The notes below the pieces were generated by a model. The model was not told the origin of the DNA, made no database searches, and saw only the letters and a program-made list of their open reading frames with translations. DNA of 64,000 nt from Leptolyngbyaceae cyanobacterium (GTDB taxonomy: Bacteria > Cyanobacteriota > Cyanobacteriia > Phormidesmidales > Phormidesmidaceae): the NCBI GenBank assembly GCA_965263355.1, contig CBDHHL010000011.1, positions 32,383-96,382 of the forward strand, written 5' to 3'. Shown here piece after piece: positions 7,809-42,267 of the stretch. Position 1 is the stretch's first letter, and every line of letters starts with the position of its first letter. The translations under genes and the position numbers were made by a program.

Positions 7809-7822
7809 AGCTTAGCGGACAT

Positions 7823-8132: not shown

Positions 8133-8150
8133 AATCTTTTTCTCTCTCAA

Positions 8151-15756: not shown

Positions 15757-15798
15757 GCCATCATTATACCTACATCGTCTATACAACGTCTAGACATA

Positions 15799-21363: not shown

Positions 21364-21508
21364 CCAAAAAAAATACCCCGCAATCCATGAGTTGCGAGGC
21401 AGTAGCCGATTAAGGAGAAAAGGAGAAAACAAGCTAATAAAAACCCCGCTTTCGATACAATAGTAGCATCAGGGGCCAAATTTGGAAATTGTAGAACAGG
21501 AGAGGGCC

Positions 21509-22345: not shown

Positions 22346-22349
22346 GAAA

Positions 22350-24484: not shown

Positions 24485-24685
24485 TTGAAAGCAAATATTA
24501 CAATTCCAGTGGACTCAGCTGTGCTTGAAAAGGCTAGACAGCTGGGCATCCCAGTTCAGGACTTACTGAGAGACGAAATATTAACGGCAGCCGATAGAGT
24601 TCTACTGCCGTTAATTGGAGAATATGCGGCTAATTGTGATCGTACTGATTATGTTCCGAGCTGGGTTAAGCGGCGTTCACACTGA
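24485..24685 (+). CDS. Small RHH/CcdA-antitoxin-like protein
   Basis: KANITIPVDSAVLEKARQLGIPVQDLLRDEI. Confidence 0.45.
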   Translation: MKANITIPVDSAVLEKARQLGIPVQDLLRDEILTAADRVLLPLIGEYAANCDRTDYVPSWVKRRSH

Positions 24686-25252: not shown

Positions 25253-25485
25253 GCTACCTTCATATGTTTTCCACGGTCATCACTGGAAACAACGCCCCTC
25301 TGCCCTATCCAGTACATTAGTTGCCCGGTTGTTTCAGCTCCATTTTTATCACGGGCAAACTTAAGATGATTATGGACGACACGAACAGCAATACCAAGCT
25401 CTTTGGCAATTTTCTTATTATGCCAGCCTTTACTAATAAGCATAATGATCTCATACTGCCTAGGCGTTAATACTACTGGTTCCAC
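25249..25485 (-). CDS. LuxR-type HTH protein
   Basis: LTPRQYEIIMLISKGWHNKKIAKELGIAVRVVHNHL. Confidence 0.85.
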   Translation of the reverse strand: MEPVVLTPRQYEIIMLISKGWHNKKIAKELGIAVRVVHNHLKFARDKNGAETTGQLMYWIGQRGVVSSDDRGKHMKVA

Positions 25486-25662
25486 AAAATTCCCCTACGG
25501 CAAAACATTCATTCAAACAAACAATACGACACATGCGAGATTCGCGGTTTTTATCGTTTTTGTTCCTCAGCAAACATCCATGCCCATACAAGGCGGAACA
25601 AAGCTTTATCGCCTGCATACGCTCGCCATTTTTTATTGATTTCATTTTGACGAGCAATTATT

Positions 25663-26328
25663 TTAATTTCTTCTGGACAATTCACGCTTAGTTCGCCTCA
25701 AGTATTGTTTAGCTTTATTGATTTCCCCGTTAAATAACAGGGCAAAAACATAGTCTTTCTTGATTTCTGGTAAAACTTGATATTCCAAGATATCGGCATA
25801 TTCCAAGCCAGCAAACGGGGAAACTTCACGGATTGGGTCTTGCCTAAAAAATCTTGGCTTAGAATATATCTCTGTTTGAATTGTCCGTTGCCTATTGCTT
25901 TTGAACCATAGCTTTCTGACCAGCTCAGTCGCATGAAAATCATAACGACCTGAGCTACGCTGTATTAACTTTAACCTTATAAGTGCATCACGGACCCGCT
26001 GGTTCATAGGAGTGTGCATAGTCAAGAAACTTTCAAATTCTCTAGCCTGAATATCAGTTAATAACTCAAACGCTGCTTCGATTAATTCAACCTCAGTAAA
26101 TGGTTCAAGTTTTTTATGCTGCATCCATATTTCACGGACCCCAGGGGCAAGCTTGTTGTCTTCTATGAGCAATCCAGCCCGACGAAATGCGCTTAAAACA
26201 GCACCTGATCGAGACGGCGGCAGAACATGACCCCCACCCTGGCAAATCATATTTAAGATTTTAGTTCTAATCTTTCTGGACTGTTCGTATCTTTGAACTT
26301 CTGCTTTTATCTGTTCCAATGTCCACAT
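25663..26328 (-). CDS. Hypothetical protein (possibly winged-helix)
   Basis: 221-aa ORF in the operon. Confidence 0.55.
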   Translation of the reverse strand: MWTLEQIKAEVQRYEQSRKIRTKILNMICQGGGHVLPPSRSGAVLSAFRRAGLLIEDNKLAPGVREIWMQHKKLEPFTEVELIEAAFELLTDIQAREFESFLTMHTPMNQRVRDALIRLKLIQRSSGRYDFHATELVRKLWFKSNRQRTIQTEIYSKPRFFRQDPIREVSPFAGLEYADILEYQVLPEIKKDYVFALLFNGEINKAKQYLRRTKRELSRRN

Positions 26329-26708
26329 AATAATTCCTGTAAAATTCCAGCCGCTTTAGTTCCTTCAAATTTAGGCAAAATCAACCCAGATTTTGCGGTC
26401 ATCCAGCTATCAAAAACAATGACACCGTTTTCCCACGCGAACTCGCATTCCCTGTCGGCACCTGAGCTGATCCCTGGAAGTCTTAGAACACAATCAGATG
26501 CAGCTACCCAGGGCATACACCACTGCAACCACATTTCATAAGGTTGAGGATAAATCAACTCATGATAGTGAGAAAACAATGGCGCAAGCGGAGCATGACC
26601 CAGCTGCAACAACGCATTGAACGCGTCATGCTGCAGCCTCACATTTGCAGCTGTATCCCCTAATGTATATGGGCTAGAGATAAAAACTTTTTTGCAAATA
26701 TTCATCAA
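26307..26708 (-). CDS. Nucleoside 2-deoxyribosyltransferase-like (DUF4406/DUF1937-type) protein
   Basis: VFISSPYT..GHAPLAP..SDCVLRLPGISSGADRECEFA. Confidence 0.8.
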   Translation of the reverse strand: MMNICKKVFISSPYTLGDTAANVRLQHDAFNALLQLGHAPLAPLFSHYHELIYPQPYEMWLQWCMPWVAASDCVLRLPGISSGADRECEFAWENGVIVFDSWMTAKSGLILPKFEGTKAAGILQELLCGHWNR

Positions 26709-27739
26709 ACCGCCAGCTCCAATAAACTTTTTTGCTCATATTTGCCCAACGTAAAATCACCCCCGAATTCCCAAAACCCCTCGACAAACTGATCGTCTCG
26801 ACTATTGCCGTTAATCCCGTTATTACCCCCAGTCAAAACGCTAAGAGATGTTAACCGCCAATCACGGCCAAGTTTATCCATCCGTTCAATCGCCTCACAC
26901 AATGGGCCTGAAATATAATTAGTCATCACAACCCGTTCAATTCGAGGGTTAGCCAACAGCCTTTCTAACGTGCTAACAATCAAGTCAAACAACTCACTCC
27001 CTTGCGGATCACCATGACAGATATACGACGGTGTTAACGCCCCTGTCCCCCGTCGTCCCGGTCTAGAGCCTTTCGGTACCCAATAAGGCGCATCATGCAA
27101 AGCGATCGCCTTGCCAGTAAAAGACAGTTCAAAACTATCAATGCAAGCATGAGCGTCATTAGAAAAGTGAAGCCTCCAATTAGGGCTAAACCAGGGCATC
27201 TTATAACCCCAGCCATCATTCAGTGTTTCAAGTAACTCTGGCGACAATTGAGGCTCATCTTTCACAAACCCAGACTTTTTTTTGAGACTGGCTACCTTAT
27301 CGCGACTCTCTTTTACGTTTAATCGCCCCTTAGTATTCGCCCTAAGAAGACTCATAAAAATGAACTCGCGAATCAACAGAGATGCGGCAGCAAGTGTTAC
27401 ACAGTCGCTTATATCTTTAGTATCAACAATGACTTTAAGGTTTTCGTAAACAACTTTTGGCCCCTTCGAGAGCACTTCTTTAGACCAATTATTAATAGTC
27501 TTCTCTACTTGCTGCCTTAAACTGTCATCTTGCCAGCATTTATAAATTACCTGAACAACAGGATCTATATCAGCCAAGAAAGCCCGCTTAACAATTCCGT
27601 TGCCGAGCATCCAATGACTGAAGTGGCCAGCACAGGCAAAAGGTTCAATGCTGGCATCATAAACATAACGCCTATCCCATACAGGATACTTAACGCGATC
27701 TTTTTTGCTGCCAGGGGTGGGGAATAAACCTGTTTTCAT
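26705..27739 (-). CDS. Divergent Dam-like (alpha class) DNA adenine methyltransferase
   Basis: FPTPGSKK, IEPFACAG, FLADID, and HDAPY as a DPPY variant. Confidence 0.7.
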   Translation of the reverse strand: MKTGLFPTPGSKKDRVKYPVWDRRYVYDASIEPFACAGHFSHWMLGNGIVKRAFLADIDPVVQVIYKCWQDDSLRQQVEKTINNWSKEVLSKGPKVVYENLKVIVDTKDISDCVTLAAASLLIREFIFMSLLRANTKGRLNVKESRDKVASLKKKSGFVKDEPQLSPELLETLNDGWGYKMPWFSPNWRLHFSNDAHACIDSFELSFTGKAIALHDAPYWVPKGSRPGRRGTGALTPSYICHGDPQGSELFDLIVSTLERLLANPRIERVVMTNYISGPLCEAIERMDKLGRDWRLTSLSVLTGGNNGINGNSRDDQFVEGFWEFGGDFTLGKYEQKSLLELAV

Positions 27740-27744
27740 TAGCC

Positions 27745-28338
27745 TTAACTTTCAGGAAGCCCCCATGCCTTTTGTTGTTCGGCTGTCATCTCAAATTGTT
27801 CAATGTCAACTCGCTTCAAGCTATCCTCTGCCGTAAACCCATTAGGAAAACGTTTTTTAAGCTTTTCAATATTAGCTTCCTGAATGTCGCCCAAAGATAA
27901 TTCTAGCTTTGTCGCAATAGCCGCATGATACCAAGCCACATCACCCAGTTCTTTGGCCCAATCACGTACATCCATCCATGGGAACAACTGCAACCCTGCT
28001 AGCTCTGAAGACTCCCCTAGAAGCCCGATCACATTCCAAAGCACCATCACGCTTTGATTGTCTAAACCTGTCGCATCAGTGCCAAACTGAGGTTTATCAA
28101 CTGCACAGATAACATCCAAGTCTTTAATTAAGTTTGCGAGGTCTGACTTGAAAGCATCCCACTGATAATCTTCATGTCGATGAAAAATATTTTTCTTCAT
28201 CTTTTCAGCCAATGTCCCTAGCCGATCATGAAGCTGAAGAATAGTCTTAAACATTTCTGCTTCAGCTTTTGTTAAGGGCTGTTCAGGCGCGTCAATTAGT
28301 GTTCTTGCTGCTAATTTTTGATATTCGTTACTATCCAT
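27745..28338 (-). CDS. MazG-like NTP pyrophosphohydrolase
   Basis: YQKLAART..GLLGESSELA..KELGDVAWY..NIEKLKKRFPNGF. Confidence 0.88.
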   Translation of the reverse strand: MDSNEYQKLAARTLIDAPEQPLTKAEAEMFKTILQLHDRLGTLAEKMKKNIFHRHEDYQWDAFKSDLANLIKDLDVICAVDKPQFGTDATGLDNQSVMVLWNVIGLLGESSELAGLQLFPWMDVRDWAKELGDVAWYHAAIATKLELSLGDIQEANIEKLKKRFPNGFTAEDSLKRVDIEQFEMTAEQQKAWGLPES

Positions 28339-28678: not shown

Positions 28679-29875
28679 TTAAATAGCGGCTGGCTGAGGA
28701 GCCTTAGAGTTCTCAGTAATACGAGCCTTGAGACCCGCAACAAAAGAACTCTCATTTGATTTAGGCAGAGTCAAATAAGTCTCAACCTTTTTATTTTTGT
28801 TCTTCAAAACAGTGATTTTGCCAATATGTAAAATAGCAGGATCAGACTCACTCAACGTTGCATTAGACGGCAAGAGAGTTCGCTTAAGGCGAGTATTGCC
28901 ATTAATAAATTTCTCCTCTCCATTGACGATGACGCAAAGCTGTACGCCTTCCCCGTACTCAGCACTATCTGTTTTTTCCCAAGCAATCACCTTGTAAGAT
29001 GATTCCTCTTGAAGCTCAGCAAGCTTCATGTATGCTTTACCAAGCTGGAATTCAACTCCATTGATAGTAATTACCCTGCCTTCCTTTGAAATCTTCAATT
29101 CTTCAGTGAACCAGCCATCACTATCGACCGGGAATCTAGCCCAATCTTCTTTTTTGCCTGGGGCATAAAAAAGAACTGGTTTATCATCAACGGCACCCAA
29201 TATGGAGCCGTAGAGCTCCCCTTCTTTGTGCCGTTTTTCAACCCACTTGATATGAGCGAACTCAATATCGGATCCGTCTTCTACGTCTCCTAGCTTAATC
29301 CGTTCTTCCCCACGTAAAAGAAACTCGTTAAGCTTTTCAGGGCTGTTGGCCATGGATAAACGAGCACTGATAAGCTTACGTCCATCTTCGGAACGATGCT
29401 CATATTTTAACCGGACAGGACAAACCAACGCGTACCCAGACGGGTCTAGGATCAGCGTATCGTCCCCTAAGTTTAATGCATATAAATCATTAGGAAAAGT
29501 CATATCAACCGGAAGGACAAATCTTTGCTGTCCCCAACGAATGCAAATAGTATCCTCGTAAGCATAAACAGATGGGATGGCAAGATTGCCGCCGCTCTCA
29601 TTGTTAATAAAAACGCAAGTACAGCCATCTGGATTGTACTCAGCAAAGCCCAGCTTTGCCGCAAGCTGACTAAAAGCCTCACGGATGTCTGCCGGTAGGC
29701 TTCCGTCCGGAATCTCAATCTTGTCTTCATTAATCCCAGCTTGAATTAATTCATTCTCAAGGTCCATTAACCTTTGAGTAAGATTGATGCTTGGAGCAGC
29801 AACAGTTGCAGTAGTTTCAACAGCTTGAGCACTAGAGGCTTTCTTTTGAAATCGGGCCATAATAATAAATTCCAA
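28679..29875 (-). CDS. Hypothetical protein, possible ssDNA-binding/replication accessory
   Basis: 398 aa, divergent from the primase; two related beta-rich blocks (IKLGDVEDG / MKLAELQEE). Confidence 0.45.
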   Translation of the reverse strand: MEFIIMARFQKKASSAQAVETTATVAAPSINLTQRLMDLENELIQAGINEDKIEIPDGSLPADIREAFSQLAAKLGFAEYNPDGCTCVFINNESGGNLAIPSVYAYEDTICIRWGQQRFVLPVDMTFPNDLYALNLGDDTLILDPSGYALVCPVRLKYEHRSEDGRKLISARLSMANSPEKLNEFLLRGEERIKLGDVEDGSDIEFAHIKWVEKRHKEGELYGSILGAVDDKPVLFYAPGKKEDWARFPVDSDGWFTEELKISKEGRVITINGVEFQLGKAYMKLAELQEESSYKVIAWEKTDSAEYGEGVQLCVIVNGEEKFINGNTRLKRTLLPSNATLSESDPAILHIGKITVLKNKNKKVETYLTLPKSNESSFVAGLKARITENSKAPQPAAI

Positions 29876-30063: not shown

Positions 30064-32313
30064 ATGAGTGGATTAGGAGCTGATTTTGGATGGAAGTCAA
30101 TACGCAAGTTTATTCCCGAGCTGCCCGAGCAGCACTATCTAGAAGCCCATCACGTTAGTCATTTGGCAGAAAGCGGTATAAGTCCCAATGCTGCCCTAGT
30201 AGCTGGCATATTTAGCGCTGATGCTGCCTTAGCTAGAACGCTCACAGGCCACGGTAGAGCCGGTCTGATATTCACTTATTTCACGATTGACGGCAAAGAT
30301 GTATATCGATGGGGGGATGATAGCAGGCCATTTTTTAGACTCAGGCCAGACAACCCGCCAAGCCCAAAATGCAAATATCTATCCCCAAAAGGGGCACCCC
30401 CACGGATTTATTTTCCGAGAGTGGCTAACAAAATAGACTTTACTAAGCTTTCAGGACTTAACCTAGCCTTAGCAGAAGGCGAGAAAAAAAGCCTACTGGC
30501 AACACTCTGTAATATCCCATGTATAGGGATTGGAGGAGTTGACAGTTACAAGACTGGTGATAAGGATGAATGGGGTAATCGTGCTCTAGGATGCCTGGTT
30601 GATGAGATTGATATTAGAGCCGCGCAAACCTTAACCATAGTTTTTGATAGCGATATCACCCACAAACATCAAGTCGCTAGGGCCATTAAAGCATTGGCTG
30701 GAAATTTAATAGAGGCTTATCATCAGCTCGAAATAGACGAGACAGGCTCTGGCGAACGAGTGCCTACCCGAACACTAGTATTAGCTAAAAAATTAAAATA
30801 TGCGCTGCTTCCAACACGATTGAAGCTTGGTAATGAAAAAAAGACCAAAAAACTAGGCTTAGATGACGCAATTATGCTATTGGGCGAATCGCCAGTAAAG
30901 GAATTGTTAAGACATGCATTGCCATTAGTAAAATGCAAGTGGGAAGATAAGTCATTAGATACTGAGTGCCTATTTGCGTCTGAACCACTGGGAGACGATG
31001 CCCACAAAGATACTCCTATTAATAAACAGCATCATGTTAGGGGGTTAATCAGTTGGTTATCCTTACATGGCATCTATGCGAATATCCCTGATTATTCAAA
31101 ACGTCAATATTACCCAGAGGGTATCTGGAAAGACGTAGGCGAGGAAGCCTGGAAATTACTTTCCGAACAAATAGCTGACACTCAGTGTTGGCTAAATAGG
31201 AAGCGTGCGATCGCGGCGCAAGAACTTAGATTTGTAGAGAACAAGACCCGATTAAGTAAAGACCAATTTGACCAACCGCATCTACTAGGATTTATTAATG
31301 GAGTGCTGGAGCTTAATAAAAAAGAGCTTATTCCACATTCTCCTCAAAATTATATTACTCAGACATTAGGGTTTTCGTATGACCCTGAGGCGCAATGCAT
31401 CCAGTGGTTAACCTGGCTAAATTGGGTATTTGAAGATGATGAAAAGTGGCCAGAGATTATTCAAGCCCTTATTCGTTGGACGATCACCCCTAAAAAACAA
31501 GGACCCTACCCTATCCATATATGGCCTGTTCTAATTGGCCCAGCTGGCATCGGTAAAGGGACATTTTTAAGTGTGTTAACGCAGCTAGTAGGCGAGGGCA
31601 GTTATGCCGCCTGGAATTATCACAACGTGAATGACGCTCGCGGCATGAACAGTATGTCCGGCAAACGAGCTTGTTTTGCAATGGACCTTAAAGGCGAATT
31701 GGGCAGTCAGGCAGTTGGAAATATTAACTCAATCTGTGTCAACGAACCCCTAGACGTAGAAGCTAAATATAAGGACAAAAGAACCGAAGAGTTTAGAACT
31801 GTCCTATGGGCAGCCATGAACCAGCCAATCAAGTCTAGGGCAGCTGACCAAGAAGGCCTTAGTAGGCGAGTACTATACATCCCATTTAGCCGCAAACCTA
31901 CCGAGATCGATACTGAGCTGGCTAACAAGCTAAAAGCTGAGCTACCAGGAATATTTAATTGGGCTTGGGCTATCTCCCTAGATGAAGCAGTGGAAACACT
32001 AAAAACTCATCTCAAGTCTGAAGAAAATATAGCATTACAGCAACGTCACTTGGCAGAATCAAATACTGTCTACGAATGGATGGAACATCTAGAACTATCC
32101 GTTGCTCAAACTCAAATAATCAGTGTTTGGTACAACCGCTATAAAGAGTGGGTGATCGACACGGGCTGCAAACCATTAAAAATGAGAAATTGGAAAAAAT
32201 ACATCCTTGCCGCCGGGGCCGAAACTCAGAGGAAGACAGGAGAAGGCATCCCGCTAACACTACCTCCCCTAAAAGACGTTGACATTAGAAAAATGCTAGG
32301 ACTATTCAACTAA
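30064..32313 (+). CDS. Primase-helicase (DUF3854/Toprim-like N-terminus, D5/P4-type SF3 helicase, C-terminal winged helix)
   Basis: KYLSPKG, LAEGEKK, IVFDSD, KLGLDD; LGFINGVL; Walker A GPAGIGKGT. Confidence 0.9.
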   Translation: MSGLGADFGWKSIRKFIPELPEQHYLEAHHVSHLAESGISPNAALVAGIFSADAALARTLTGHGRAGLIFTYFTIDGKDVYRWGDDSRPFFRLRPDNPPSPKCKYLSPKGAPPRIYFPRVANKIDFTKLSGLNLALAEGEKKSLLATLCNIPCIGIGGVDSYKTGDKDEWGNRALGCLVDEIDIRAAQTLTIVFDSDITHKHQVARAIKALAGNLIEAYHQLEIDETGSGERVPTRTLVLAKKLKYALLPTRLKLGNEKKTKKLGLDDAIMLLGESPVKELLRHALPLVKCKWEDKSLDTECLFASEPLGDDAHKDTPINKQHHVRGLISWLSLHGIYANIPDYSKRQYYPEGIWKDVGEEAWKLLSEQIADTQCWLNRKRAIAAQELRFVENKTRLSKDQFDQPHLLGFINGVLELNKKELIPHSPQNYITQTLGFSYDPEAQCIQWLTWLNWVFEDDEKWPEIIQALIRWTITPKKQGPYPIHIWPVLIGPAGIGKGTFLSVLTQLVGEGSYAAWNYHNVNDARGMNSMSGKRACFAMDLKGELGSQAVGNINSICVNEPLDVEAKYKDKRTEEFRTVLWAAMNQPIKSRAADQEGLSRRVLYIPFSRKPTEIDTELANKLKAELPGIFNWAWAISLDEAVETLKTHLKSEENIALQQRHLAESNTVYEWMEHLELSVAQTQIISVWYNRYKEWVIDTGCKPLKMRNWKKYILAAGAETQRKTGEGIPLTLPPLKDVDIRKMLGLFN

Positions 32314-33207: not shown

Positions 33208-34926
33208 ATGGTTGAGGCGATTCAGTCGTCATTATTGATGGCTACTGGCGATGACGAATCGCCAAAAATAACGTTGACAGGCCAGCAAGAGGTTCTTAAG
33301 GCTGAGGTACTGGAATGGCTAAGGCTTAAACCTTCTAAGCTTGCTCGCGTGACTGGCTTTGCTGGCACGGGAAAGACCACCGTGATTAAATATGTTGTGC
33401 AAGCTGCTATTGAAGAGGGGCTTATTAATGGCCCGGTCTGGGCTTGCGCTCCTACTCATCAAGCTAAAGGGGTGATTGAGAACTCGTTGAGGGGAAGTGC
33501 TGTCACTGAGGTGACCACCGCTCATTCATTGCTTGGTTTGCGGCCTAAGACAGTTGAGTTCAAACGAAAGGACCAAGATAAATTAGATGTCCTTTTAGGC
33601 ATTAAAGAAGAACTTAGAAGTACGGATGAATCGGCGTTAATTGATGCTTTATTGATACGTCGCAACGCTTCAGACGCTGAAGTTCAATCGTTTGTGCCTA
33701 GCGGAAAGCTCAAGGAAGGAATAGAAAAAGTCAGGTTTTTGTTAGTTGATGAATGGTCAATGATCGACAAGCTTCTATATGGGCTTTTTTGCGAACTAGC
33801 GAATGACCCAGTGATGCACCCTGACTTTCAAATTATTTTCTTGGGGGATCCTGCTCAGCTGCCACCTATTGGCGAAACAATTAGCAAGGTTGAGTCTTTG
33901 CCGTCATTCCAAGAGTTAACAGAGGTTGTTCGCTATAAAGGCGCAATTCTTGAATACTGCAATAAGGTCCGTACTGAACGAGATTACAACTGGCTGCATC
34001 AGCGAGTGGAGGAAGATGACACTTTAATGGTTCTGCAAGAGTGGGAAGTCATGCCTCAACTTAAAGAACTGTACGCAGCTGGGGAGTCTATCCGATTTGC
34101 TGCAGCGACTAACGCTAGGGTAATGGCCCTTAATTATCAGATTCGCGGCATTCTCAAAGATGGGGATTTGTCTGGACTATTTTACGATCCAGGGGATGTT
34201 GTGTTGACGTTGAATGCTGTTAGCCGTAGCAGTTCATATGCTTATGACGTTGCTTGCGGTGGGAAAAAATCGAAGCTGGAAGAGCACACCAGCACACTTT
34301 TAGAACTTGGCGACCTATGCGGACCGGGTGCATATGTAAGTCTTGGCACTTCTGGAACAATTCTTACAGATCAGTCATTTGAGATGACATCGAAGCTTGG
34401 TACTAAATTTAGCCGAATGATTTTTCGATATCGGCGTTATGAGTCAGGGCTACCGTTCTCGGAACGAAAAGCAATATGTTTGCTCAACCCAGCTCAGTAC
34501 GACCAATGGCAGCTTGAATGTAAGCAGCTAGCTAGCCGAGCAAAAGTTACTCAGACCCGCAGTCGTAAATCTACAGGCATTAGAGGACAGGAAGGGGAGC
34601 AGGCTAAGGCTGTTTGGGAAGAGTTTGGTTTAAAAAACTGGTGGAAAAAGAAGAACGGCGAACCTTTACAGCAGTATGAATATCAAAAGCTTAAAACGGG
34701 ATTGTGGATAGACTACTTTGACTTGGCCAACTTTGCTGATAAGGCCAGTTACAGCTATGTGAGCACTTGCCATCGGCTGCAAGGCGTAACAGTAGATATT
34801 GTCGTGCTTGACATGAAGACTCTTATGTCGAACGCACAAGCAAAATTTGACGAAACTTGGGATCCTCGAAAGCTGCTGTACACCGCAGCTACTAGGGCAC
34901 GTAAACAGTTGATTTTTATGTGCTAA
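33208..34926 (+). CDS. SF1B helicase (Dda/RecD-like)
   Basis: GFAGTGKTT, APTHQA, LLVDEWSMID, LGDPAQLPPI, STCHRLQG, LLYTAATRAR. Confidence 0.92.
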   Translation: MVEAIQSSLLMATGDDESPKITLTGQQEVLKAEVLEWLRLKPSKLARVTGFAGTGKTTVIKYVVQAAIEEGLINGPVWACAPTHQAKGVIENSLRGSAVTEVTTAHSLLGLRPKTVEFKRKDQDKLDVLLGIKEELRSTDESALIDALLIRRNASDAEVQSFVPSGKLKEGIEKVRFLLVDEWSMIDKLLYGLFCELANDPVMHPDFQIIFLGDPAQLPPIGETISKVESLPSFQELTEVVRYKGAILEYCNKVRTERDYNWLHQRVEEDDTLMVLQEWEVMPQLKELYAAGESIRFAAATNARVMALNYQIRGILKDGDLSGLFYDPGDVVLTLNAVSRSSSYAYDVACGGKKSKLEEHTSTLLELGDLCGPGAYVSLGTSGTILTDQSFEMTSKLGTKFSRMIFRYRRYESGLPFSERKAICLLNPAQYDQWQLECKQLASRAKVTQTRSRKSTGIRGQEGEQAKAVWEEFGLKNWWKKKNGEPLQQYEYQKLKTGLWIDYFDLANFADKASYSYVSTCHRLQGVTVDIVVLDMKTLMSNAQAKFDETWDPRKLLYTAATRARKQLIFMC

Positions 34927-34997: not shown

Positions 34998-35810
34998 ATG
35001 ACCATAAACACTTCCAACGACAATAACGATTCCAATATCGTTCGCAGCTTTAATCAAGTTGATATCTGGCAAAAGCGAGAAGATGGCTATATCAATCTCA
35101 ATCAGATGGCTCAAGCCACAGATAAACGGATAGACAACTGGCTTCGCTTACAGTCAACTAAAGAACTCATTGATGCCTTTGATGCTGAAAATGCTTCCTC
35201 AGATCCAAGGGAGCAATCCCCAGCCTTGATAACCATCACTAGTGGTATTAAGGGACAGCGTGGCGGTGGTGGGACATGGGCACACCCTGATATTGCTATC
35301 CAATTTGCAATGTGGTGTAGTCCAGCATTTGCCCTTCAAGTTAGCAAATGGGTTCGTACCTATATGACTGAAGGCCGATTGGAGGCTGAAGAGTCAATTC
35401 CAGCTCATGAACTTAAGTTCATTAAGATGGTTGAGCAAATCGAAGATGTTTTTCCAAAGGACTGCGCCCAATCTCGAGATCTTAAGCACCGAGCTGCACT
35501 AATTTGTTATCCAGAGTATGCCTGTGCTCAATTGATTGCAGAAGATAATCGTAAAAAGTACATTATCAAACGAAAGCGTGAATTACAGGCGCGCAGTGTT
35601 GAGAACTGGCTGGCAAGCCTAGCTTTGATTAGAAACCAACAAAAACCAATTTCTAAATGGTATCAAGGCTATAAAGAATGGTGCTTGCAAGAATTCGACA
35701 TGGTTCCATTGGCCATGTACAAGTGGAAAGCTTATTTGATTGATAATGAATTCGCTCAAGTCCTGAAAAAAACAGGTGCAGGTATCCCACTAGAAATCTT
35801 TCCTGTGTAA
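34998..35810 (+). CDS. KilA-N domain protein fused to a primase-type C-terminal winged helix
   Basis: EDGYINLNQMA..WLRLQSTKELI..GTWAHPDIAIQFAMWCSPAF; C-terminus similar to the primase C-terminus. Confidence 0.9.
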   Translation: MTINTSNDNNDSNIVRSFNQVDIWQKREDGYINLNQMAQATDKRIDNWLRLQSTKELIDAFDAENASSDPREQSPALITITSGIKGQRGGGGTWAHPDIAIQFAMWCSPAFALQVSKWVRTYMTEGRLEAEESIPAHELKFIKMVEQIEDVFPKDCAQSRDLKHRAALICYPEYACAQLIAEDNRKKYIIKRKRELQARSVENWLASLALIRNQQKPISKWYQGYKEWCLQEFDMVPLAMYKWKAYLIDNEFAQVLKKTGAGIPLEIFPV

Positions 35811-35834: not shown

Positions 35835-36239
35835 ATGTCACTAAGAAAAGGTCTTTACGATGTTTACGATCTTCATGAACAAAAAGATTACGAGCATGAA
35901 GGCTATTGCATTTTATTCCATCCCGATAATAGAGTTTTGCTGCTAAGTGTCCATGGTGAGATTAAAGCTAGTTTTACTTTGCCAGTCAAAAGCAAAGATA
36001 TTTCTTACTTGATTGAAAGCTTTAGTGAGCATTGCCCGCCCGATTCTAAAGGTGATTCCTATTTCTGTGTAGCTGAAGCTATTGCAGATATAGCAGGAAA
36101 TAAGACTCAAAAGTTTGGCAATTGCGAATGTTGTGGGACTCGGCTGTTTAGGTATGGCGGATATTACGGCAGTGGGATGTGTGGCGTTTGTCATCAAGGT
36201 GATGCGGAGCTTTTAGAGGAAGTGGGGGCAACTTGGTAA
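35835..36239 (+). CDS. Hypothetical protein with C-terminal Zn finger
   Basis: CECC..CGVC. Confidence 0.55.
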   Translation: MSLRKGLYDVYDLHEQKDYEHEGYCILFHPDNRVLLLSVHGEIKASFTLPVKSKDISYLIESFSEHCPPDSKGDSYFCVAEAIADIAGNKTQKFGNCECCGTRLFRYGGYYGSGMCGVCHQGDAELLEEVGATW

Positions 36240-36634
36240 TGAAAATTTCAAAAAAAATACTTCAGTCTTCAATACTTAAAATCCCTAACCTGCGGGGGGT
36301 GAATGTAACCATTGGCGCTGATGCTGGGGGCGGTGGTGCTCCACCAATTGCGATATGGATTTATTGTGGAATAAATGGTTATTCGGGAAGCCCTGTCAAG
36401 GTCAGATTAAAGCTAGCAACGGGGGAGATCTTCTATTACCAGCATTTGTACAGGAAAGATGATTCACCGCATACTCAAGAATCAATGATGAATTATGCAG
36501 CTGCTTGTCTTTTTTGTGGTGGATTAGAACCTGAAGATATTTTGAACCTTGCTGAACAAGCTGGTCACGAAGTGCGTTTGCCCATAGATGAGATCATCTT
36601 TCCAGACTATCAAAAGCCATGCCTCACCAATTAG
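36233..36634 (+). CDS. Hypothetical protein
   Basis: Overlapping ORF in the operon. Confidence 0.5.
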   Translation: MVMKISKKILQSSILKIPNLRGVNVTIGADAGGGGAPPIAIWIYCGINGYSGSPVKVRLKLATGEIFYYQHLYRKDDSPHTQESMMNYAAACLFCGGLEPEDILNLAEQAGHEVRLPIDEIIFPDYQKPCLTN

Positions 36635-36978
36635 AACTATCGTTAACTCGTCGTTCTAAAACCAAATGCACTGCCCCATCGGATGCCATCATCCCAGGCT
36701 TAGACGCTAGCTTATGTCGCTGTGATTATTGTCTAACTCGTTCTGATGGCATTTGGTGGGTAGATGTTAACCAACGGCTTGACTGCCTCAATAAGAAAAA
36801 GCATAAAATCCCTTACTTAATTGAGGTATACCGTCGCCAAGCTGTTGGTGTTGCCCACGACGACGATACAAAAGAAACAGAAGCTCAGAATGCGAAACGT
36901 AAACACGCACAATGGGCCGGTCAAAAGTTCAAACAAACTAATAAACCATGTCAGCAACAACAATTACTAGACCAATAA
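36619..36978 (+). CDS. Hypothetical Cys-containing protein
   Basis: Overlapping ORF in the operon. Confidence 0.5.
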   Translation: MPHQLELSLTRRSKTKCTAPSDAIIPGLDASLCRCDYCLTRSDGIWWVDVNQRLDCLNKKKHKIPYLIEVYRRQAVGVAHDDDTKETEAQNAKRKHAQWAGQKFKQTNKPCQQQQLLDQ

Positions 36979-38486
36979 CAGAACCAAAGTTCAGCTCTTA
37001 TCCATATCCTAAGGAGGGGGCCACAAGTGCCGAATGGCGAGCTTGGCTAGAAGGAATGGTGGGGGATTTATGGTATGACATTGCAGTTGAATTAACCCCT
37101 CTATTAAATAATGTGCAAGTTGAACGGTTCCCGATTGAATTTATCCCGACATTTGCCGATGTGGGCGGCAGTGGCTGGGCTCGCTTTGATGAGGGCAGCT
37201 GGCAATGCATTTCCCCTGATGACCTGCCTGCAACCATGGTTCTCGATGTTGAATCCATTGAATTGCAAGCATTCACGGCAAACGCTGATATAGATGCTTG
37301 GTTGCCTTGCCTATGCATTTGCTATGGGGCCGACGGTTATTGGTACGCATGGCAAGAGCAAAACCCAATGTATCGCTGGACGGAAACTAAGCAGCGTACT
37401 ATTCCGTTCCCAACTGGTTGCATCGTGATCACTCAGAACGGCGCTGCCCATGATTCGCAATTTCTTAGTAGTTCTTATGCAGAGTATGGACCAGAGCGTT
37501 GTCTATTTATAGATGTGATGGCCCTGGCAATGCTTGTCAGAGGCGTGCATAAAGAACAGCGATCGCAGTATGAGAAGTACAAGGTTGCGATCGCTAATGG
37601 TAAGCCTGCTCCCGATTGGGTAACTCAGGCATCCGACATGGATCTGGCCAGCTTAGCTAGTGACGTACTGGGAATTGAGATTCTGAAAACAGTTGGAGGG
37701 GAAGGGCCACAGACGCTGTTTGAATATTGTGCTCAAGATGTCTGGATAACCCTTCGATTGTTTCAAGAACTATGGCCACTGGTTGCGAATATCTATTGCC
37801 CCAGTCCAGTAATTTTGTATGGCATGGCGGCAACGACTGGGCTTAGATATCCGGTTGGTGATTGGCAAGAACTTGTTTCGTATATAGAAACTGAATATGA
37901 AAAAGCCAAAAAAATTAAGCCTAGCAAACGAGATTCTAATGATATTGCTCTAGTCAATTGGGGCAAATCACATTTGCGTACATTTCGCGATGGATACAGC
38001 GTTAACGGCATGACCAATATGGGCTTTAACCCTGCTCACGATGTATCAGGGATGCCCAAAAGCACCATCTGGAGTCATCACTGGATGATTCGGCAATTTT
38101 TAATTACTGGAGTTAGTGATCAGCCGACCACTAGTTACATGCTGTTTGAAGCTAGGGTTCCGATGCCGATTATCCCAGGGAATGCATTAGCTAAGACATT
38201 AGCCAGCCAGCCGAACATTAAAACGCATTTTGCTAAGCCCCCTGAGCCAGTGAAAGCCAACAAAAAAGCTAAGGCTGATTGGCTGCAATTAAGACCATTA
38301 ACCGATGCTATGCATGTCATGATCTGCCTGATTGACTGCTTTTGTGAAGAGTACGAAATTGACGGGTTTCTTGCAATCCCAGGGCTAGAAACATTATGGT
38401 ACGCCGTCGACTCTGCTCAGGAAAAAGAGTTTCAAGAATGCATCGCTAAAGCTCAAAGTTTAGTTTACAAATTGATGGCTGATTGA
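36948..38486 (+). CDS. DNA polymerase gamma-like protein: intact 3'-5' exonuclease, degenerate polymerase domain
   Basis: GWARF..VLDVE (ExoI), NGAAHD (ExoII), YCAQDVW..CPSPVILYGM (ExoIII plus Pol gamma-type linker); C-terminal DAMHVM..EEYEIDG resembles the Pol gamma motif C region but lacks HDE. Confidence 0.8.
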   Translation: MSATTITRPITEPKFSSYPYPKEGATSAEWRAWLEGMVGDLWYDIAVELTPLLNNVQVERFPIEFIPTFADVGGSGWARFDEGSWQCISPDDLPATMVLDVESIELQAFTANADIDAWLPCLCICYGADGYWYAWQEQNPMYRWTETKQRTIPFPTGCIVITQNGAAHDSQFLSSSYAEYGPERCLFIDVMALAMLVRGVHKEQRSQYEKYKVAIANGKPAPDWVTQASDMDLASLASDVLGIEILKTVGGEGPQTLFEYCAQDVWITLRLFQELWPLVANIYCPSPVILYGMAATTGLRYPVGDWQELVSYIETEYEKAKKIKPSKRDSNDIALVNWGKSHLRTFRDGYSVNGMTNMGFNPAHDVSGMPKSTIWSHHWMIRQFLITGVSDQPTTSYMLFEARVPMPIIPGNALAKTLASQPNIKTHFAKPPEPVKANKKAKADWLQLRPLTDAMHVMICLIDCFCEEYEIDGFLAIPGLETLWYAVDSAQEKEFQECIAKAQSLVYKLMAD

Positions 38487-38562: not shown

Positions 38563-39417
38563 GTGATAGTGAACAACCTAATTATTGTTGATACGTCTGT
38601 GATCGCCTTCCAAATGTCGGCCCAGATTGACAAGGCAGGCCTAACCGAAACTAATGCTAAAGTTTACGCCTACATGGCGGCAGAATGGGTTAATTCACTA
38701 GGCTGGATTCCCGCGTTGCAATCAACTGGTAAATGCGTTTGGGCAATTGACTCTAAGCCCTACTGGCGTAATCAGCTATTCCCCGATTACAAAGCAGGCC
38801 GCAAACCTAAACCCGCATCATTCCATACTGCGATGGAGGGCATATTAAGCAGCAGTGCTTCTTTGATTGATATAAAATCACAAGAAGCCGACGACGTAGC
38901 CGCTGCTATTGTTCGGCTATGGCTAGATAGCAGCTCAGGATTGATCGATCAAATCTATTTGGCTACCGTTGATAGTGACTGGCATGGGTTAGTCCAAAAC
39001 CCTGATATTTTTTGGTTAAATACTCGCAACCACCCTCCACGCGTTCGAAGTCGAGAAGAGATATTTAATTGGCTTTGCAGCAAATGGAACCAGCAATCTA
39101 AGAAACGTCAGAAATGGTGGGCATTGCCTAGCTATCAATCATTTAGATGTGATGATGTTTGGCGATGGAAAATAGCAGTCGGCGATAAAGCCGATAACTT
39201 AAGCGATGGTTCAGCAAAATACTTAATTGATTTACTGCGACCCCCCAAACAATTTGATATCCTAGAATCAAAGGAATCTGTAAATACTATTTACAGAGGA
39301 GTAAATTTAGCAAGTAAGCCTGATTTGAGCCTTGCTCATGAATGTAAGCAGGGTATGTTGTCACTAGGGGCACTTCCCCCCATCGAAATAATTAGCCTGA
39401 AAGTTTTAGTTTCATAG
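38563..39417 (+). CDS. 5'-3' exonuclease / flap endonuclease (T5 exo / T4 RNase H-like)
   Basis: IIVD, WAID..YWRNQLFPDYKAGR, EADDVAA, TVDSDW, GDKADNL. Confidence 0.9.
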   Translation: MIVNNLIIVDTSVIAFQMSAQIDKAGLTETNAKVYAYMAAEWVNSLGWIPALQSTGKCVWAIDSKPYWRNQLFPDYKAGRKPKPASFHTAMEGILSSSASLIDIKSQEADDVAAAIVRLWLDSSSGLIDQIYLATVDSDWHGLVQNPDIFWLNTRNHPPRVRSREEIFNWLCSKWNQQSKKRQKWWALPSYQSFRCDDVWRWKIAVGDKADNLSDGSAKYLIDLLRPPKQFDILESKESVNTIYRGVNLASKPDLSLAHECKQGMLSLGALPPIEIISLKVLVS

Positions 39418-40809: not shown

Positions 40810-42267
40810 TTAGGGGTTGTTAAGGGGGATAGGGCAGAGGACTCGCACTTTCAGTGCTGTGGTGAATGCCAGTCCCCCTTAACTTTACGAAAACTTAATT
40901 CTACTAGCTAACACATCTCTAGTAGAACCAGTTATACTAAGGGTATGCTAACACTGAACTACCAATATCGTTTATATCCCGATGCTGAACAAGAGATGAT
41001 CTTGTGTGACTGGCTCGAAACGTCTAGAAGCGTTTACAACTATGCTTTAAGACAGATTAAAGACTGGTCAAACAGCCGGAAATGTCCGATTGATCGGTGT
41101 TCAATCGTTAGTGAATACGTCCTAGCAGCGGATGAGCCGTATCCGTCAGAAGTCAGACAAATCAACGCTTTGTCTAAAGCCAAAAAAGATAAACCACGAC
41201 TAAAAACGGTTCCTGCTCAGAACTTACAGCAGGTCATTAAGCGACTTCACAGATCGTTTGATTTCATGCGTGAGAGAGGTTTCGGGTATCCACGGTTCAA
41301 AAAGCATGGTCAATTTAGATCGACCTTGTTTCCTCAGTTCAAGGCATCCCCGCTGGATGAAAAGAACGGAATACTAAAGCTTCCCAAGCTAGGAAAAGTG
41401 ACTATTAATCTTCACCGACCGATACCGGAAGGGTTCAAGATTAAAAATTGTCGCGTCATTAAAAAGGCCGATCAATGGTATGTGAATATCTGCATCCAAT
41501 GTGCTGTAGACGTTCCGACTATTGGTTTCCACGGTCACGCTATTGGCGTTGACCTTGGGTTAGATTACCTTGTCGCAACCTCAGATGGCTTACAGATAAA
41601 GCGTTCCCGTTTCTTAGTTAAAGCCGAACGCAAGCTTAAATTGCTGCAACGTCGCTTAGCGAGAAAACAAAAAGGGTCGTCAAATTATCGTAAGCAACAA
41701 CTGAAGATTGCACGATTTCACCGTCACGTAGCGGCACAACGTAGAGATCATCATTACAAACTGGCTCACCAGTTGTTAGATGGGTGCGACTCGATATTTT
41801 TTGAAGACATTGATTTTCGGATCATGGCTAAAGGAATGTTGGGTAAGCATACACTTGATGCCGGACTCGGTGAATTACGTCAGATTACGAAAGTAGTCGC
41901 GTTTAAGCGTGGGAAATTCTTTGATACGGTTGATCATCGTGGAACTTCCCAAGAATGCCCAGACTGCGGAGCTACCGTCAGAAAGACCCTTGCTGATAGA
42001 ATTCACAATTGCACTGAATGCGGTTCAGTCAAGCCTAGGGACGTGGCTAGCGGTCAAGTGATTCGCAATCGTGGCGTAGAGAAAAATCATTTTTTACCCG
42101 TGGATAATCGGGAACTGGAAACAGCCTGAGCAATCGATCTGCCGGGGCGGTAAAACGCTAGGTAAGTGGTGCAAGCCGAGTATTCGGAATAACCAGGAAA
42201 TCTCAACTGAAACGAATCAGTTCGATAAAGTTGGGAAGCCCCCACTTTCAGTGGGGGAGGATGTCAC
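40810..42267 (+). mobile_element. Non-autonomous IS200/IS605-family element (tnpB only)
   Basis: Hairpin core CACTTTCAGTG shared by the left end (40846-40856) and right end (42243-42253); right end finishes ..GGATGTCAC; TTGAG immediately upstream. Confidence 0.8.
40945..42129 (+). CDS. tnpB: RNA-guided endonuclease TnpB
   Basis: YQYRLYP; RuvC motifs GVDLG, FFEDID, PRDVASGQVI; CPDC..CTEC. Confidence 0.95.
   Translation: MLTLNYQYRLYPDAEQEMILCDWLETSRSVYNYALRQIKDWSNSRKCPIDRCSIVSEYVLAADEPYPSEVRQINALSKAKKDKPRLKTVPAQNLQQVIKRLHRSFDFMRERGFGYPRFKKHGQFRSTLFPQFKASPLDEKNGILKLPKLGKVTINLHRPIPEGFKIKNCRVIKKADQWYVNICIQCAVDVPTIGFHGHAIGVDLGLDYLVATSDGLQIKRSRFLVKAERKLKLLQRRLARKQKGSSNYRKQQLKIARFHRHVAAQRRDHHYKLAHQLLDGCDSIFFEDIDFRIMAKGMLGKHTLDAGLGELRQITKVVAFKRGKFFDTVDHRGTSQECPDCGATVRKTLADRIHNCTECGSVKPRDVASGQVIRNRGVEKNHFLPVDNRELETA

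What the first reader, a model, noticed from the sequence alone, without database searches (positions are those of the whole stretch)
36948..38486. Mitochondrial Pol gamma-like protein that has kept proofreading but lost polymerase catalysis
Seen: the 512-aa ORF has GWARF..MVLDVE, NGAAHD..LFIDVMALAMLVRG..QRS and FEYCAQDVWITLRLFQELWPL..CPSPVILYGM..YPVGDW. From memory these closely parallel human POLG (GWTRY..[69 protein letters not shown]). All three exonuclease motifs keep their acidic residues. The C-terminus (DWLQ..TDAMHVMICLIDCFCEEYEIDGFLAIPGLETLWYAV) tracks POLG [44 protein letters not shown], but motif C HDE becomes GLE. Motif A appears as SYMLFEARV with no Asp, and the fingers/motif B region seems deleted. 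Known: Pol gamma-type polymerases occur in Acaryochloris siphoviruses A-HIS1/A-HIS2. Inference: this is an open, un-frameshifted gene repurposed as a stand-alone 3'-5' exonuclease or primer-junction binder, next to a 5'-3' exonuclease, primase and helicase. It could proofread in trans or process DNA ends.
Basis: partly seen in the sequence, partly recalled or inferred. Interest (0 to 1): 0.9.

Follow-up and report, generated by a model that had tools for sequence, protein, structure and literature searches.

The report
Fingerless Pol gamma relic keeping its proofreader
A cyanobacterial phage carries a half-size relative of the mitochondrial DNA polymerase that has lost the parts needed to copy DNA but keeps an apparently intact proofreading nuclease, and this short form is conserved across related phages.

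Summary
It is a compact Pol gamma. Pfam finds only the mitochondrial-polymerase exonuclease domain (PF18136). A confident AlphaFold model (pLDDT 89.7) superposes 460 of 512 residues on human POLG (Z 34.4). The best other family A polymerase scores Z 17.6.

All six exonuclease catalytic residues are present. The fingers/motif B and the spacer are deleted. The motif A aspartate is Arg403.

It is not a pseudogene. At least 12 sequence clusters keep the same ~500-aa form, and both halves are under purifying selection.

A related cyanobacterial genome has a 958-aa intact Pol gamma-like polymerase in the same helicase–polymerase–FEN slot. The complete ~98-kb sister prophage has no other detectable polymerase and no separately encoded fingers.

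Most likely this is a polymerase-derived, stand-alone 3'-5' exonuclease that still grips primer-template DNA. No activity was measured. No description was found in the papers searched. It is a new variant of a known kind.

The parts
36948..38486 (+). Gene for the 512-aa 'mini Pol gamma' (stop codon included)
   Evidence: ORF. Its start agrees with homologues P0001-P0004. One member of the 90% cluster is 100% identical.
36948..37154 (+). N-terminal domain (aa 1-69), shared with Pol gamma-like polymerases
   Evidence: hhalign aligns short-form positions 25-304 to intact long forms at 100% probability. The VIA alignment starts at model residue 8.
37155..37922 (+). DEDDy 3'-5' exonuclease domain (aa 70-325). 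Codons: ExoI D100 37245-37247 and E102 37251-37253; ExoII N164 37437-37439 and D169 37452-37454; ExoIII Y260 37725-37727 and D264 37737-37739.
   Evidence: PF18136. Residues and codons checked. Conservation across 12 short forms.
37863..37988 (+). Two long helices (aa 306-321 and 330-347), read as the thumb base. They carry the family-invariant W338 (W-G-K). The ~257-aa spacer/thumb-tip deletion lies just after residue 321.
   Evidence: Secondary structure of the model. W338 is invariant in 15 of 15 rows. Window 321 maps to P0185 350 and window 359 to P0185 645. That these helices are the thumb is my inference.
38022..38072 (+). Palm N-terminal hairpin, aa 359-375 (FNPAHDVSGMPKSTIW). Probable remnant of the family A 'TGR' motif.
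   Evidence: BLASTP HSP to P0185 645-661 (INPAGTVTGRAKSGVW). It is colinear but weak on its own (E 0.16). The E-INS-i alignment places this stretch differently, so the mapping is tentative.
38133..38159 (+). Motif A strand without its catalytic Asp (aa 396-404, SYMLFEARV). R403 (38154-38156) sits in the Asp column.
   Evidence: The E-INS-i alignment is anchored on a shared GY. The column is Asp in 10 of 10 intact long forms and Arg in the window protein.
38160..38270 (+). Short linker (aa 405-441) replacing the fingers subdomain and motif B (~107 aa deleted)
   Evidence: About 120 gap columns in all 12 short forms. Window 403-442 corresponds to P0185 696-842. No motif B pattern is found in any short form.
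38271..38411 (+). Retained C-terminal palm (aa 442-488): pre-motif C helix and a degenerate motif C, L480-E481-T482 (38385-38393) in place of H-D-E
   Evidence: phmmer against POLG. hhalign probability 97.3%. BLASTP to P0185 842-909, E 4e-10. Column counts.
38412..38483 (+). Last helix (aa 489-510) and C-terminus. The further C-terminal tail of intact polymerases is missing.
   Evidence: P0185 continues about 46 aa further.
30064..32313 (+). Primase-helicase (DUF3854/Toprim-like + D5_N + DUF5906), part of the conserved replication module
   Evidence: It is 48% identical to the sister prophage's gene and 32% to G442's.
33208..34926 (+). SF1 Dda-like helicase
   Evidence: 60% identical in the sister prophage and 30% in G442.
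35835..36978 (+). Three small ORFs of unknown function (134, 133 and 119 aa). The last overlaps the start of the mini Pol gamma gene by 31 nt.
   Evidence: Conserved in the sister prophage at 63%, 46% and 55%. G442 has no ORF of 100 aa or more between its helicase and polymerase genes, and none of the three gave a tblastn hit there.
38563..39417 (+). 5'-3' exonuclease (FEN), 76 nt downstream
   Evidence: PF02739. 54% identical in the sister prophage and 38% in G442. Gap measured.

Best explanation
The gene encodes a reduced descendant of a phage replicative Pol gamma-type (family A) polymerase.

Kept: the N-terminal domain, a DEDDy 3'-5' exonuclease domain with its catalytic residues complete, the thumb base, and most of the palm.

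Lost: the fingers subdomain with motif B, the spacer, the motif A aspartate (now Arg403), the motif C Asp-Glu pair (now Glu-Thr), and the C-terminal tail.

It therefore cannot polymerise by the family A two-metal mechanism. I infer that it works as a stand-alone 3'-5' exonuclease. The retained thumb and palm would hold the duplex of a primer-template, nick or flap. The 3' end would be fed to the exonuclease site as in the editing mode of a normal polymerase.

It sits in the polymerase slot of a conserved primase-helicase / helicase / FEN replication module. The phages that carry it have no detectable polymerase of their own, so they presumably use the host's. It then trims 3' ends during phage replication or recombination.

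Shown: the architecture, the residue losses, the conservation, the selection and the genomic context. Inferred: exonuclease activity, DNA binding by the remnant, and the biological substrate.
For: Fold:
- AF2 model pLDDT 89.7, pTM 0.90.
- 460 of 512 residues superpose on human POLG 122-1168 at Z 34.4, rmsd 3.6 A. The best non-gamma polymerase scores Z 17.6.
- Foldseek ranks 1-34 are all Pol gamma.

Exonuclease:
- PF18136 scores above its cut-off.
- The catalytic set D/E/N/D/Y/D is complete in the window protein and in 10 of 12 short forms.
- These positions are invariant in the 14 near-identical copies.

Polymerase loss:
- 0 of 9 further short forms hit PF00476, against 23 of 29 relatives of 726 aa or more. 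The window protein and its sister-prophage homologue also lack a PF00476 hit.
- No short form has a motif B pattern.
- The fingers block is a clean gap. The motif A Asp column is Asp in 10 of 10 long forms but R,R,R,E,Q,L,I,E,Y,T,D,E in the short forms.
- Both motif C carboxylates survive in only 1 of 12, P0008.

Not decay:
- Relatives at 97, 50, 49 and 42% identity are 512, 514, 517 and 493 aa. More clusters of 469-525 aa match end to end.
- Window against sister gene: pS is about 0.8 (saturated), with pN 0.30 in the exonuclease part and 0.375 in the remnant.
- Within the 90% cluster the remnant varies less than the exonuclease part: 9 of 187 columns against 28 of 256.

Origin in place:
- G442 has a 958-aa intact Pol gamma-like polymerase between a homologous helicase and FEN.
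- All 13 short forms, the 4 intermediates and these long forms share a clade with SH-aLRT 99.

No other polymerase:
- None was found among the window ORFs scanned.
- None was found in 124 + 5 ORFs of the 122-kb sister contig.
- No PF00476 match exists anywhere in that MAG.

Precedent: polymerase-deficient POLG proofreads in trans for exonuclease-deficient POLG, in flies and in vitro (PMC4773887, passages read).
Against: - No activity was measured. Intact motifs do not prove an active nuclease.
- One family member (P0013) has lost the ExoI Glu and the ExoIII Tyr, and P0010 has Asp for the ExoI Glu. So at least one lineage may keep the protein without exonuclease chemistry.
- The remnant is more conserved than the exonuclease domain among close copies. 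That also fits a mainly structural or binding role.
- The window holds only 64 kb of a phage that is probably about 100 kb. Absence of a polymerase is therefore shown only for the sister prophage, and only for families that Pfam can recognise.
- Many ORFs are of unknown function.
- The mapping of residues 326-395 is uncertain, because two alignment methods disagree.
- The exonuclease-domain trees used the quick method.
Confidence: 0.6

Rival explanations
1. It is a dedicated trans-acting proofreader. The phage lets a host polymerase synthesise its DNA but supplies its own polymerase-derived editing protein, which removes misincorporated 3' nucleotides. Functionally this would resemble the epsilon (DnaQ) subunit. 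This is a narrower form of the best explanation.
For: - The exonuclease set is intact and a duplex-holding remnant is retained.
- No phage polymerase is detectable in the sister prophage.
- Pol-deficient POLG complements exo-deficient POLG in trans in flies, and the human proteins do so in vitro (PMC4773887).
Against: - Bacterial replicases normally already have a proofreader (general knowledge, not tested here).
- Nothing links this protein to a host polymerase.
- The adjacent FEN fits flap or end processing equally well.
Confidence: 0.2
2. It is mainly a non-catalytic replisome part. It would bind primer-template junctions or act as an adaptor between the phage primase-helicase and a host polymerase, with the exonuclease site dispensable.
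For: - The polymerase remnant is the least variable part among close copies.
- P0013 has lost two exonuclease residues yet keeps the full short architecture.
- The related 726-769-aa group also keeps degenerate polymerase domains.
- Inactivated polymerase modules kept as structural parts are known, for example in Pol epsilon (PMC2669801, title and start of abstract seen in a search listing only).
Against: The six exonuclease residues are complete in 10 of 12 short forms that share only about 28-51% identity with the window protein. That is hard to explain without selection on catalysis.
Confidence: 0.15
3. It is half of a split polymerase. The fingers and catalytic residues would be supplied by another polypeptide, as in PhiKZ's two-subunit family B polymerase.
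For: - Split phage polymerases exist (bioRxiv 10.64898/2026.09.30.755723, abstract read).
- Mic1's Pol gamma is annotated as two CDSs.
Against: - HMMs of the deleted fingers and spacer find nothing in any frame of 40 aa or more in the window or the 122-kb sister contig (best E 2.7). The G442 control scores E 9e-44 and 1.5e-40.
- The palm strands that should carry the carboxylates are present in this protein but are mutated.
- Mic1's two parts are joined across an intron and keep all motifs.
- Only 76 nt separate the gene from the FEN gene.
Confidence: 0.03
4. It is a decaying pseudogene or an assembly artefact.
For: It is about half the length of intact relatives.
Against: - The frame is open.
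- 13 members of 512 aa and one of 513 aa come from separate assemblies.
- The same architecture persists down to about 28% identity.
- pN is far below a saturated pS in both halves.
- The model is confident and compact.
Confidence: 0.02

Closest known systems
DNA polymerase gamma catalytic subunit (human/mouse POLG, yeast Mip1) and the Pol gamma of cyanophages A-HIS1/A-HIS2, S-TIM5, S-CBWM1 and Mic1
   Same: - The PF18136 exonuclease domain.
- The whole chain superposes on POLG at Z 34.4.
- The N-terminal domain, the motif A strand and the pre-motif C helix are recognisable.
- In Mic1 and its relatives the polymerase travels with FEN, helicase and primase genes (PMC7156551, passages read).
   Different: - Half the size.
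- No fingers or motif B, no spacer, no C-terminal tail.
- The motif A Asp is Arg, and motif C HDE is LET.
- No PF00476 hit.
- Its exonuclease domain falls in a different well-supported clade from the one holding Mic1 and the long (1100-1560 aa) proteins that I take to be eukaryotic.
Full-length Pol gamma-like polymerase of a related cyanobacterial genome (G442, P0185, 958 aa; 84% identical to P0023 over the exonuclease-domain columns)
   Same: - The same position, between a homologous SF1 helicase and a FEN, with a homologous primase-helicase nearby.
- It is colinear with the window protein over 31-321 and 442-509.
- It falls in the same clade with SH-aLRT 99.
   Different: - P0185 has PF00476, motif A with its Asp, motif B and the spacer.
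- Its primase-helicase gene is on the opposite strand.
- It lacks the three small ORFs.
Engineered polymerase-deficient POLG variants
   Same: They are exonuclease-proficient and polymerase-deficient, and they edit in trans for another polymerase molecule (PMC4773887).
   Different: Those are laboratory point mutants with a complete fold. This is a natural, conserved deletion form.
Stand-alone DEDD exonucleases (DnaQ/epsilon, RNase D, WRN exonuclease domain; named from general knowledge)
   Same: A DEDD(y) catalytic set in a separately encoded protein. PF01612 gives a weak hit, E 0.0047.
   Different: By my recollection, which was not tested here, those proteins have no thumb or palm remnant and do not derive from a replicative polymerase.
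Trypanosoma brucei POLIB (family A polymerase with dominant exonuclease activity) and the inactivated exonuclease-polymerase module of Pol epsilon
   Same: Both are precedents for polymerases whose balance has shifted away from synthesis (PMC9731263 and PMC2669801; titles and starts of abstracts seen in a search listing only).
   Different: By its title, POLIB keeps a polymerase domain. By the paper's title, both activities of the Pol epsilon module are inactivated.

Membership tests
Pol gamma subfamily of family A DNA polymerases | Pol gamma-type exonuclease domain (Pfam PF18136) | tested here: met
   E 6.4e-11, 42.4 bits against a cut-off of 26.7. 100% hhalign probability to intact long forms.
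Pol gamma subfamily of family A DNA polymerases | Overall fold closest to solved Pol gamma structures | tested here: met
   Z 34.4, 460 of 512 residues aligned, rmsd 3.6 A. Other family A polymerases score Z 17.6 or less. Foldseek ranks 1-34 are Pol gamma.
Pol gamma subfamily of family A DNA polymerases | Family A polymerase domain (PF00476) with the motif A Asp, motif B (R..K...Y/F.G) and the motif C H-D-E | tested here: not met
   No PF00476 hit. Arg403 sits in the Asp column, motif B is deleted, and motif C reads L-E-T.
Pol gamma subfamily of family A DNA polymerases | Spacer region between the exonuclease and polymerase domains | tested here: not met
   38 residues stand where P0185 has 295. 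The spacer HMM finds nothing in the window.
DEDDy (DnaQ-like) 3'-5' exonucleases | ExoI D-x-E, ExoII N-x(4)-D and ExoIII Y-x(3)-D | tested here: met
   D100/E102, N164/D169 and Y260/D264.
DEDDy (DnaQ-like) 3'-5' exonucleases | Metal-dependent 3'-5' exonuclease activity | not testable with these tools
   This needs a biochemical assay.
Split phage DNA polymerase | A second gene that encodes the missing polymerase part | tested here: not met
   No match to the fingers, spacer or pol-half HMMs outside the gene itself, in the window and the 122-kb sister contig. The positive control scores E 9e-44.

The most novel reading that the evidence does not exclude
These temperate cyanophages have handed DNA synthesis to the host but kept their own fidelity device. 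The ancestral replicative Pol gamma-type polymerase was cut down to a fingerless editing protein. It docks on primer ends made by a foreign polymerase and proofreads them in trans. That would be an epsilon-like subunit that evolved independently from a polymerase. The 726-769-aa relatives with degenerate motifs would be an intermediate stage of the same reduction.
Probability: 0.2. Interest if true: 0.85.

Novelty: new variant of a known kind. Interest (0 to 1): 0.7.

Why it matters
Polymerases that lose their proofreading domain are common. The reverse is unusual: a replicative polymerase that loses its fingers and catalytic carboxylates yet keeps an intact exonuclease and stays under selection. 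I found no description of this in the library searched.

- It gives a natural test of whether the editing half of a family A polymerase can work alone or in trans, which so far rests on engineered POLG mutants.
- It shows that a phage replication module can persist after giving up its own polymerase.
- It enlarges the known prokaryotic and phage radiation of Pol gamma-like proteins (311 clusters at E <= 0.001), which bears on where the mitochondrial enzyme came from.
- A compact 512-aa Pol gamma core may also be a tractable model of the POLG exonuclease-palm unit.

Tried and rejected
- The window's own genome is not held.
- Megablast of 30-42 kb against phage records found no match.
- tblastn against phages found only Mic1, 29% identity over residues 171-293.
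- The word-indexed search for longer relatives found none. The exhaustive profile search superseded it.
- The viral-contig scan found no relative.
- The metagenome scan gave one weak locus, L002 (32% over residues 267-342), which I did not follow up.
- hmmalign to a long-form HMM left the C-terminal halves unaligned, so I used E-INS-i and BLASTP instead.
- The ESM Atlas search with the 398-aa neighbour gave no hit of 0.9 or more. The only lead was a phi29 SSB cluster at 0.82. Pfam at E <= 5 and the PDB sequence search gave nothing for it.
- Complex prediction of the mini Pol gamma with orf119 gave no answer: score 0.00, controls not run.
- The look-up of sequencing runs listed three holders from one study and no RNA holder.
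- The search of earlier findings showed nothing.
- BFVD has no target with this short architecture; the TM-score normalised to the target is 0.45 or less.
- The AU test does not reject a single clade of the 13 short forms (p 0.459), but it does not show one either.
- In 401 sampled genomes of the phylum only G001 matched, and in 172 of the order only G001 and G442.
- Rejected readings: pseudogene, split polymerase, and a hidden downstream exon or intron (only 76 nt to the FEN gene).
- One search was corrected. One search was not resent.
Full report
**1.

The similarity to Pol gamma is well beyond chance:
- Pfam finds the mitochondrial-polymerase exonuclease domain PF18136 (E 6.4e-11, 42.4 bits against a cut-off of 26.7). 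It finds no family A polymerase domain.
- A sequence search of the PDB returns only Pol gamma chains at E <= 0.0012, with human POLG at E about 2e-9 and yeast Mip1 at 0.0012. A weak third stretch aligns residues 440-487 to the POLG segment that ends in the motif C strand.

**2. Fold**

I built a 15-row alignment of the short relatives (A2) and folded it with AlphaFold2. The model is confident: mean pLDDT 89.7, pTM 0.90.
- Foldseek against the PDB puts Pol gamma (human, mouse, yeast Mip1) at ranks 1-34, with TM-scores up to 0.75 normalised to the query.
- VIA-align superposes 460 of 512 residues on human POLG residues 122-1168, with Z 34.4 and rmsd 3.6 A.
- The best non-gamma family A polymerase (phage G20c Pol I) reaches Z 17.6, and Taq and Bst about 16.

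The protein is therefore a compact Pol gamma core, not just an exonuclease domain with an unrelated tail.

**3. What is kept and what is lost**

I aligned 12 short forms, 4 intermediate forms and 10 intact long forms with MAFFT E-INS-i. The near-identical P0001 and the fragments P0011 and P0052 were left out.

Exonuclease residues in the short forms:

| Position | Conserved in |
|---|---|
| ExoI Asp | 12 of 12 |
| ExoI Glu | 10 of 12 (P0010 Asp, P0013 Ser) |
| ExoII Asn | 12 of 12 |
| ExoII Asp | 12 of 12 |
| ExoIII Tyr | 11 of 12 (P0013 Asp) |
| ExoIII Asp | 12 of 12 |

The window protein has all six: D100, E102, N164, D169, Y260 and D264.

Polymerase motifs:
- **Motif A.** The strand is present and anchored by a shared Gly-Tyr. 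Its catalytic Asp column is Asp in 10 of 10 long forms. In the short forms it reads R,R,R,E,Q,L,I,E,Y,T,D,E. The window protein has Arg403. The single Asp, in P0016, lies in a gapped stretch.
- **Fingers and motif B.** This block is one clean gap of about 120 columns in all 12 short forms. A motif B pattern search finds none in any short form.
- **Motif C.** H-D-E in 10 of 10 long forms aligns to L480-E481-T482. An acidic residue occupies the Asp column in 5 of 12 short forms. Both carboxylates survive only in P0008.

BLASTP against the syntenic full-length enzyme P0185 is colinear:
- window 31-321 aligns to P0185 60-350 (E 7e-27);
- window 359-375 aligns to 645-661, the TGR motif, which is weak on its own (E 0.16);
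- window 442-509 aligns to 842-909 (E 4e-10).

This implies deletions of about 257 aa (spacer and thumb tip) and about 107 aa (fingers), plus a missing C-terminal tail of about 46 aa.

hhalign supports both ends: 100% probability for the N-terminal and exonuclease part and 97.3% for the C-terminal palm. The mapping of residues 326-395 is the least certain, because E-INS-i and BLASTP place the 359-375 hairpin differently.

**4. A conserved family, not a pseudogene**

- The word-indexed search found relatives at 97, 50, 49 and 42% identity, of 512, 514, 517 and 493 aa.
- The exhaustive profile search found 311 clusters at E <= 0.001, 92 at <= 1e-10 and 30 at <= 1e-30. Further proteins of 469-525 aa match the profile end to end.
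- In Pfam, 0 of the 9 further short forms hit PF00476, against 23 of 29 relatives of 726 aa or more at E <= 0.001. The window protein and its sister-prophage homologue lack the hit too.
- The window's own 90% cluster has 16 members. Thirteen are 512 aa and one is 513 aa, on contigs of up to 165 kb, several of them 96-102 kb. One member is identical to the window protein.
- Between the window gene and its 50%-identical homologue in the sister prophage, synonymous sites are saturated (pS about 0.8). pN is 0.30 in the exonuclease part and 0.375 in the remnant.
- Among the 14 near-identical copies, 28 of 256 exonuclease columns vary but only 9 of 187 remnant columns. No catalytic or substituted position varies.

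Both halves are under constraint.

**5. Context and origin**

The window looks like a tailed phage. It has a tape-measure protein, a minor tail protein, a lysozyme, an M15 peptidase, Bro-N and KilA-N proteins, methylases and a MazG.

The gene lies in a replication module:
- primase-helicase, 30064..32313;
- Dda-like helicase, 33208..34926;
- KilA-N protein;
- three small ORFs;
- the mini Pol gamma;
- FEN, 38563..39417.

The module is syntenic with a cyanobacterial MAG contig, L001/G001. Identities are 48% for the primase-helicase, 60% for the helicase, 63/46/55% for the small ORFs, 50% for the mini Pol gamma and 54% for the FEN. That 122-kb contig holds a prophage of about 98 kb. It starts at a serine recombinase beside host genes and carries terminase, portal and coat genes.

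No polymerase family was found there, in 124 ORFs of 90 aa or more plus 5 ORFs that straddled my fetch boundaries. There is no PF00476 match anywhere in that MAG. In the window, no ORF of 180 aa or more went unscanned, and none is a polymerase.

G442, a second genome of the same order, has a 958-aa protein with PF18136 and PF00476 and with motifs A and B intact. It sits between a homologous helicase (30% identity) and a FEN (38%), with a homologous primase-helicase (32%) nearby. So an intact polymerase occupies the slot that the short form occupies here.

In an exonuclease-domain tree (82 rows, quick method; four long-branch or fragment rows dropped: P0047, P0050, P0053, P0055), one clade with SH-aLRT 99 holds all 13 short forms, the 4 intermediates and 18 long forms including P0185. 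An AU test does not reject a single clade of the short forms, p 0.459. In the free trees they group only weakly (support 77), together with P0029, P0039 and P0047. Those three matched the profile over the exonuclease part only, and I did not resolve their architecture.

**6. Rivals tested**

- **Split polymerase.** HMMs of the deleted fingers and spacer, and of the whole polymerase half, were run against every frame of 40 aa or more of the window and the sister contig. The only hit is the mini protein's own C-terminal remnant (E 3.6e-4). The best fingers hit is noise (E 2.7). The G442 control scores E 9e-44, 1.5e-40 and 3.8e-64.
- **Mic1.** Its two 'DNA polymerase gamma' CDSs are an intron-interrupted but complete enzyme. 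The first ends in motif A, and the second carries motifs B and C (PMC7156551, passages read).
- **Hidden exon.** There is no room, since only 76 nt separate the gene from the FEN gene.

**7. Mechanism (inferred)**

The protein has no fingers to bind the incoming nucleotide and template. At most one acidic residue remains at the two metal-ligand positions. It cannot polymerise in the family A way.

It keeps the exonuclease chemistry, and it keeps the thumb base and palm. In family A enzymes these hold the primer-template duplex (established knowledge).

The simplest reading is an exonuclease that binds 3' ends at junctions, nicks or flaps and trims them, working beside the FEN in a phage that uses a host polymerase. 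Trans-proofreading is plausible, because polymerase-deficient POLG edits for exonuclease-deficient POLG in flies and in vitro (PMC4773887, passages read).

Two results keep a mainly structural role alive: the strong conservation of the remnant, and the loss of two exonuclease residues in P0013.

**8. Novelty**

- The family A reclassification paper lists Pol gamma as a cluster that includes cyanophage enzymes. In the passages I read it mentions no fingerless form (PMC10201439).
- The organellar family A survey mentions none in the passages I read (PMC10877234).
- Full-text searches for cyanophage plus polymerase gamma, for PF18136 or DNApol_Exo, for polymerase gamma plus prophage plus cyanobacteria plus exonuclease, and for pseudo-polymerase terms found no description.
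- Supplements were not examined.
- BFVD holds no viral protein of this architecture.

I file it as a new variant of a known kind. It fails the defining polymerase features of Pol gamma while clearly descending from it.

Noticed in passing
Proteins P0005, P0025, P0031, P0037 (726-769 aa; no loci available): This second group of Pol gamma-like proteins keeps the spacer. It has degenerate motif A (C/V/Q/Q in the Asp column), degenerate motif C, a mostly deleted fingers subdomain and no PF00476 hit, while its exonuclease motifs are intact. It may be an intermediate stage of the same reduction or a parallel one.
   Followed up: partly
window 35835..36978 (+): Three small ORFs (134, 133 and 119 aa) lie between the helicase gene and the mini Pol gamma gene. 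They are conserved in the sister prophage. G442, which has a full-length polymerase, has no ORF of 100 aa or more between its helicase and polymerase genes, and none of the three gave a tblastn hit there. orf134 and orf119 carry Cys clusters. orf119 overlaps the mini Pol gamma start by 31 nt and has only a few homologues.
   Followed up: partly
window 34998..35810 (+) and 30064..32313 (+): The C-terminal 81 aa of the KilA-N protein are homologous to the C-terminus of the primase-helicase (35% identity, E 2e-11). The KilA-N gene gave no tblastn hit in the sister prophage contig.
   Followed up: partly
Protein P0013 (525 aa) and P0010 (508 aa): P0013 has lost the ExoI Glu (Ser) and the ExoIII Tyr (Asp) but keeps the full short architecture. 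P0010 has Asp for the ExoI Glu.
   Followed up: no
window 14542..15786 (-) and 40945..42129 (+): Two TnpB/IS605 OrfB-type ORFs (HTH_OrfB_IS605 + OrfB_IS605 + Cas12f1-like TNB) lie inside the phage region. One is just downstream of the replication module.
   Followed up: no
L003 (Microcystis phage Mic1, MN013189) 5470..8446: The Mic1 Pol gamma is annotated as two CDSs. The first ends exactly in motif A (...GADVDS). The second carries motif B-like sequence and an intact HDE. The paper attributes the split to a 298-bp intron.
   Followed up: partly
window 21482..22345 (+) and 22146..23087 (+): An M15 peptidase ORF and a phage lysozyme ORF overlap by 200 nt in different frames. This could be a two-domain lysis cassette, a frameshifted fusion, or a miscalled start.
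   Followed up: no
window 24677..28338 (-): A nucleotide-metabolism cluster lies upstream of the replication module. It holds an Rv2179c-like 3'-5' exoribonuclease (PHROG 'RNase H'), a nucleoside 2-deoxyribosyltransferase-like ORF and a MazG-like pyrophosphatase.
   Followed up: no
window 28679..29875 (-): A 398-aa ORF of unknown function diverges from the primase-helicase gene. It is conserved in the sister prophage (37%). It has no Pfam or PDB sequence match, and the Atlas gives only a weak phi29 SSB lead.
   Followed up: partly
window 3150..3896 (+) and 54060..55253 (+): A PAS-domain ORF lies among tail-fibre-like genes, and there is a Wzy_C (O-antigen ligase-like) membrane ORF. Both are unusual cargo for a phage.
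   Followed up: no
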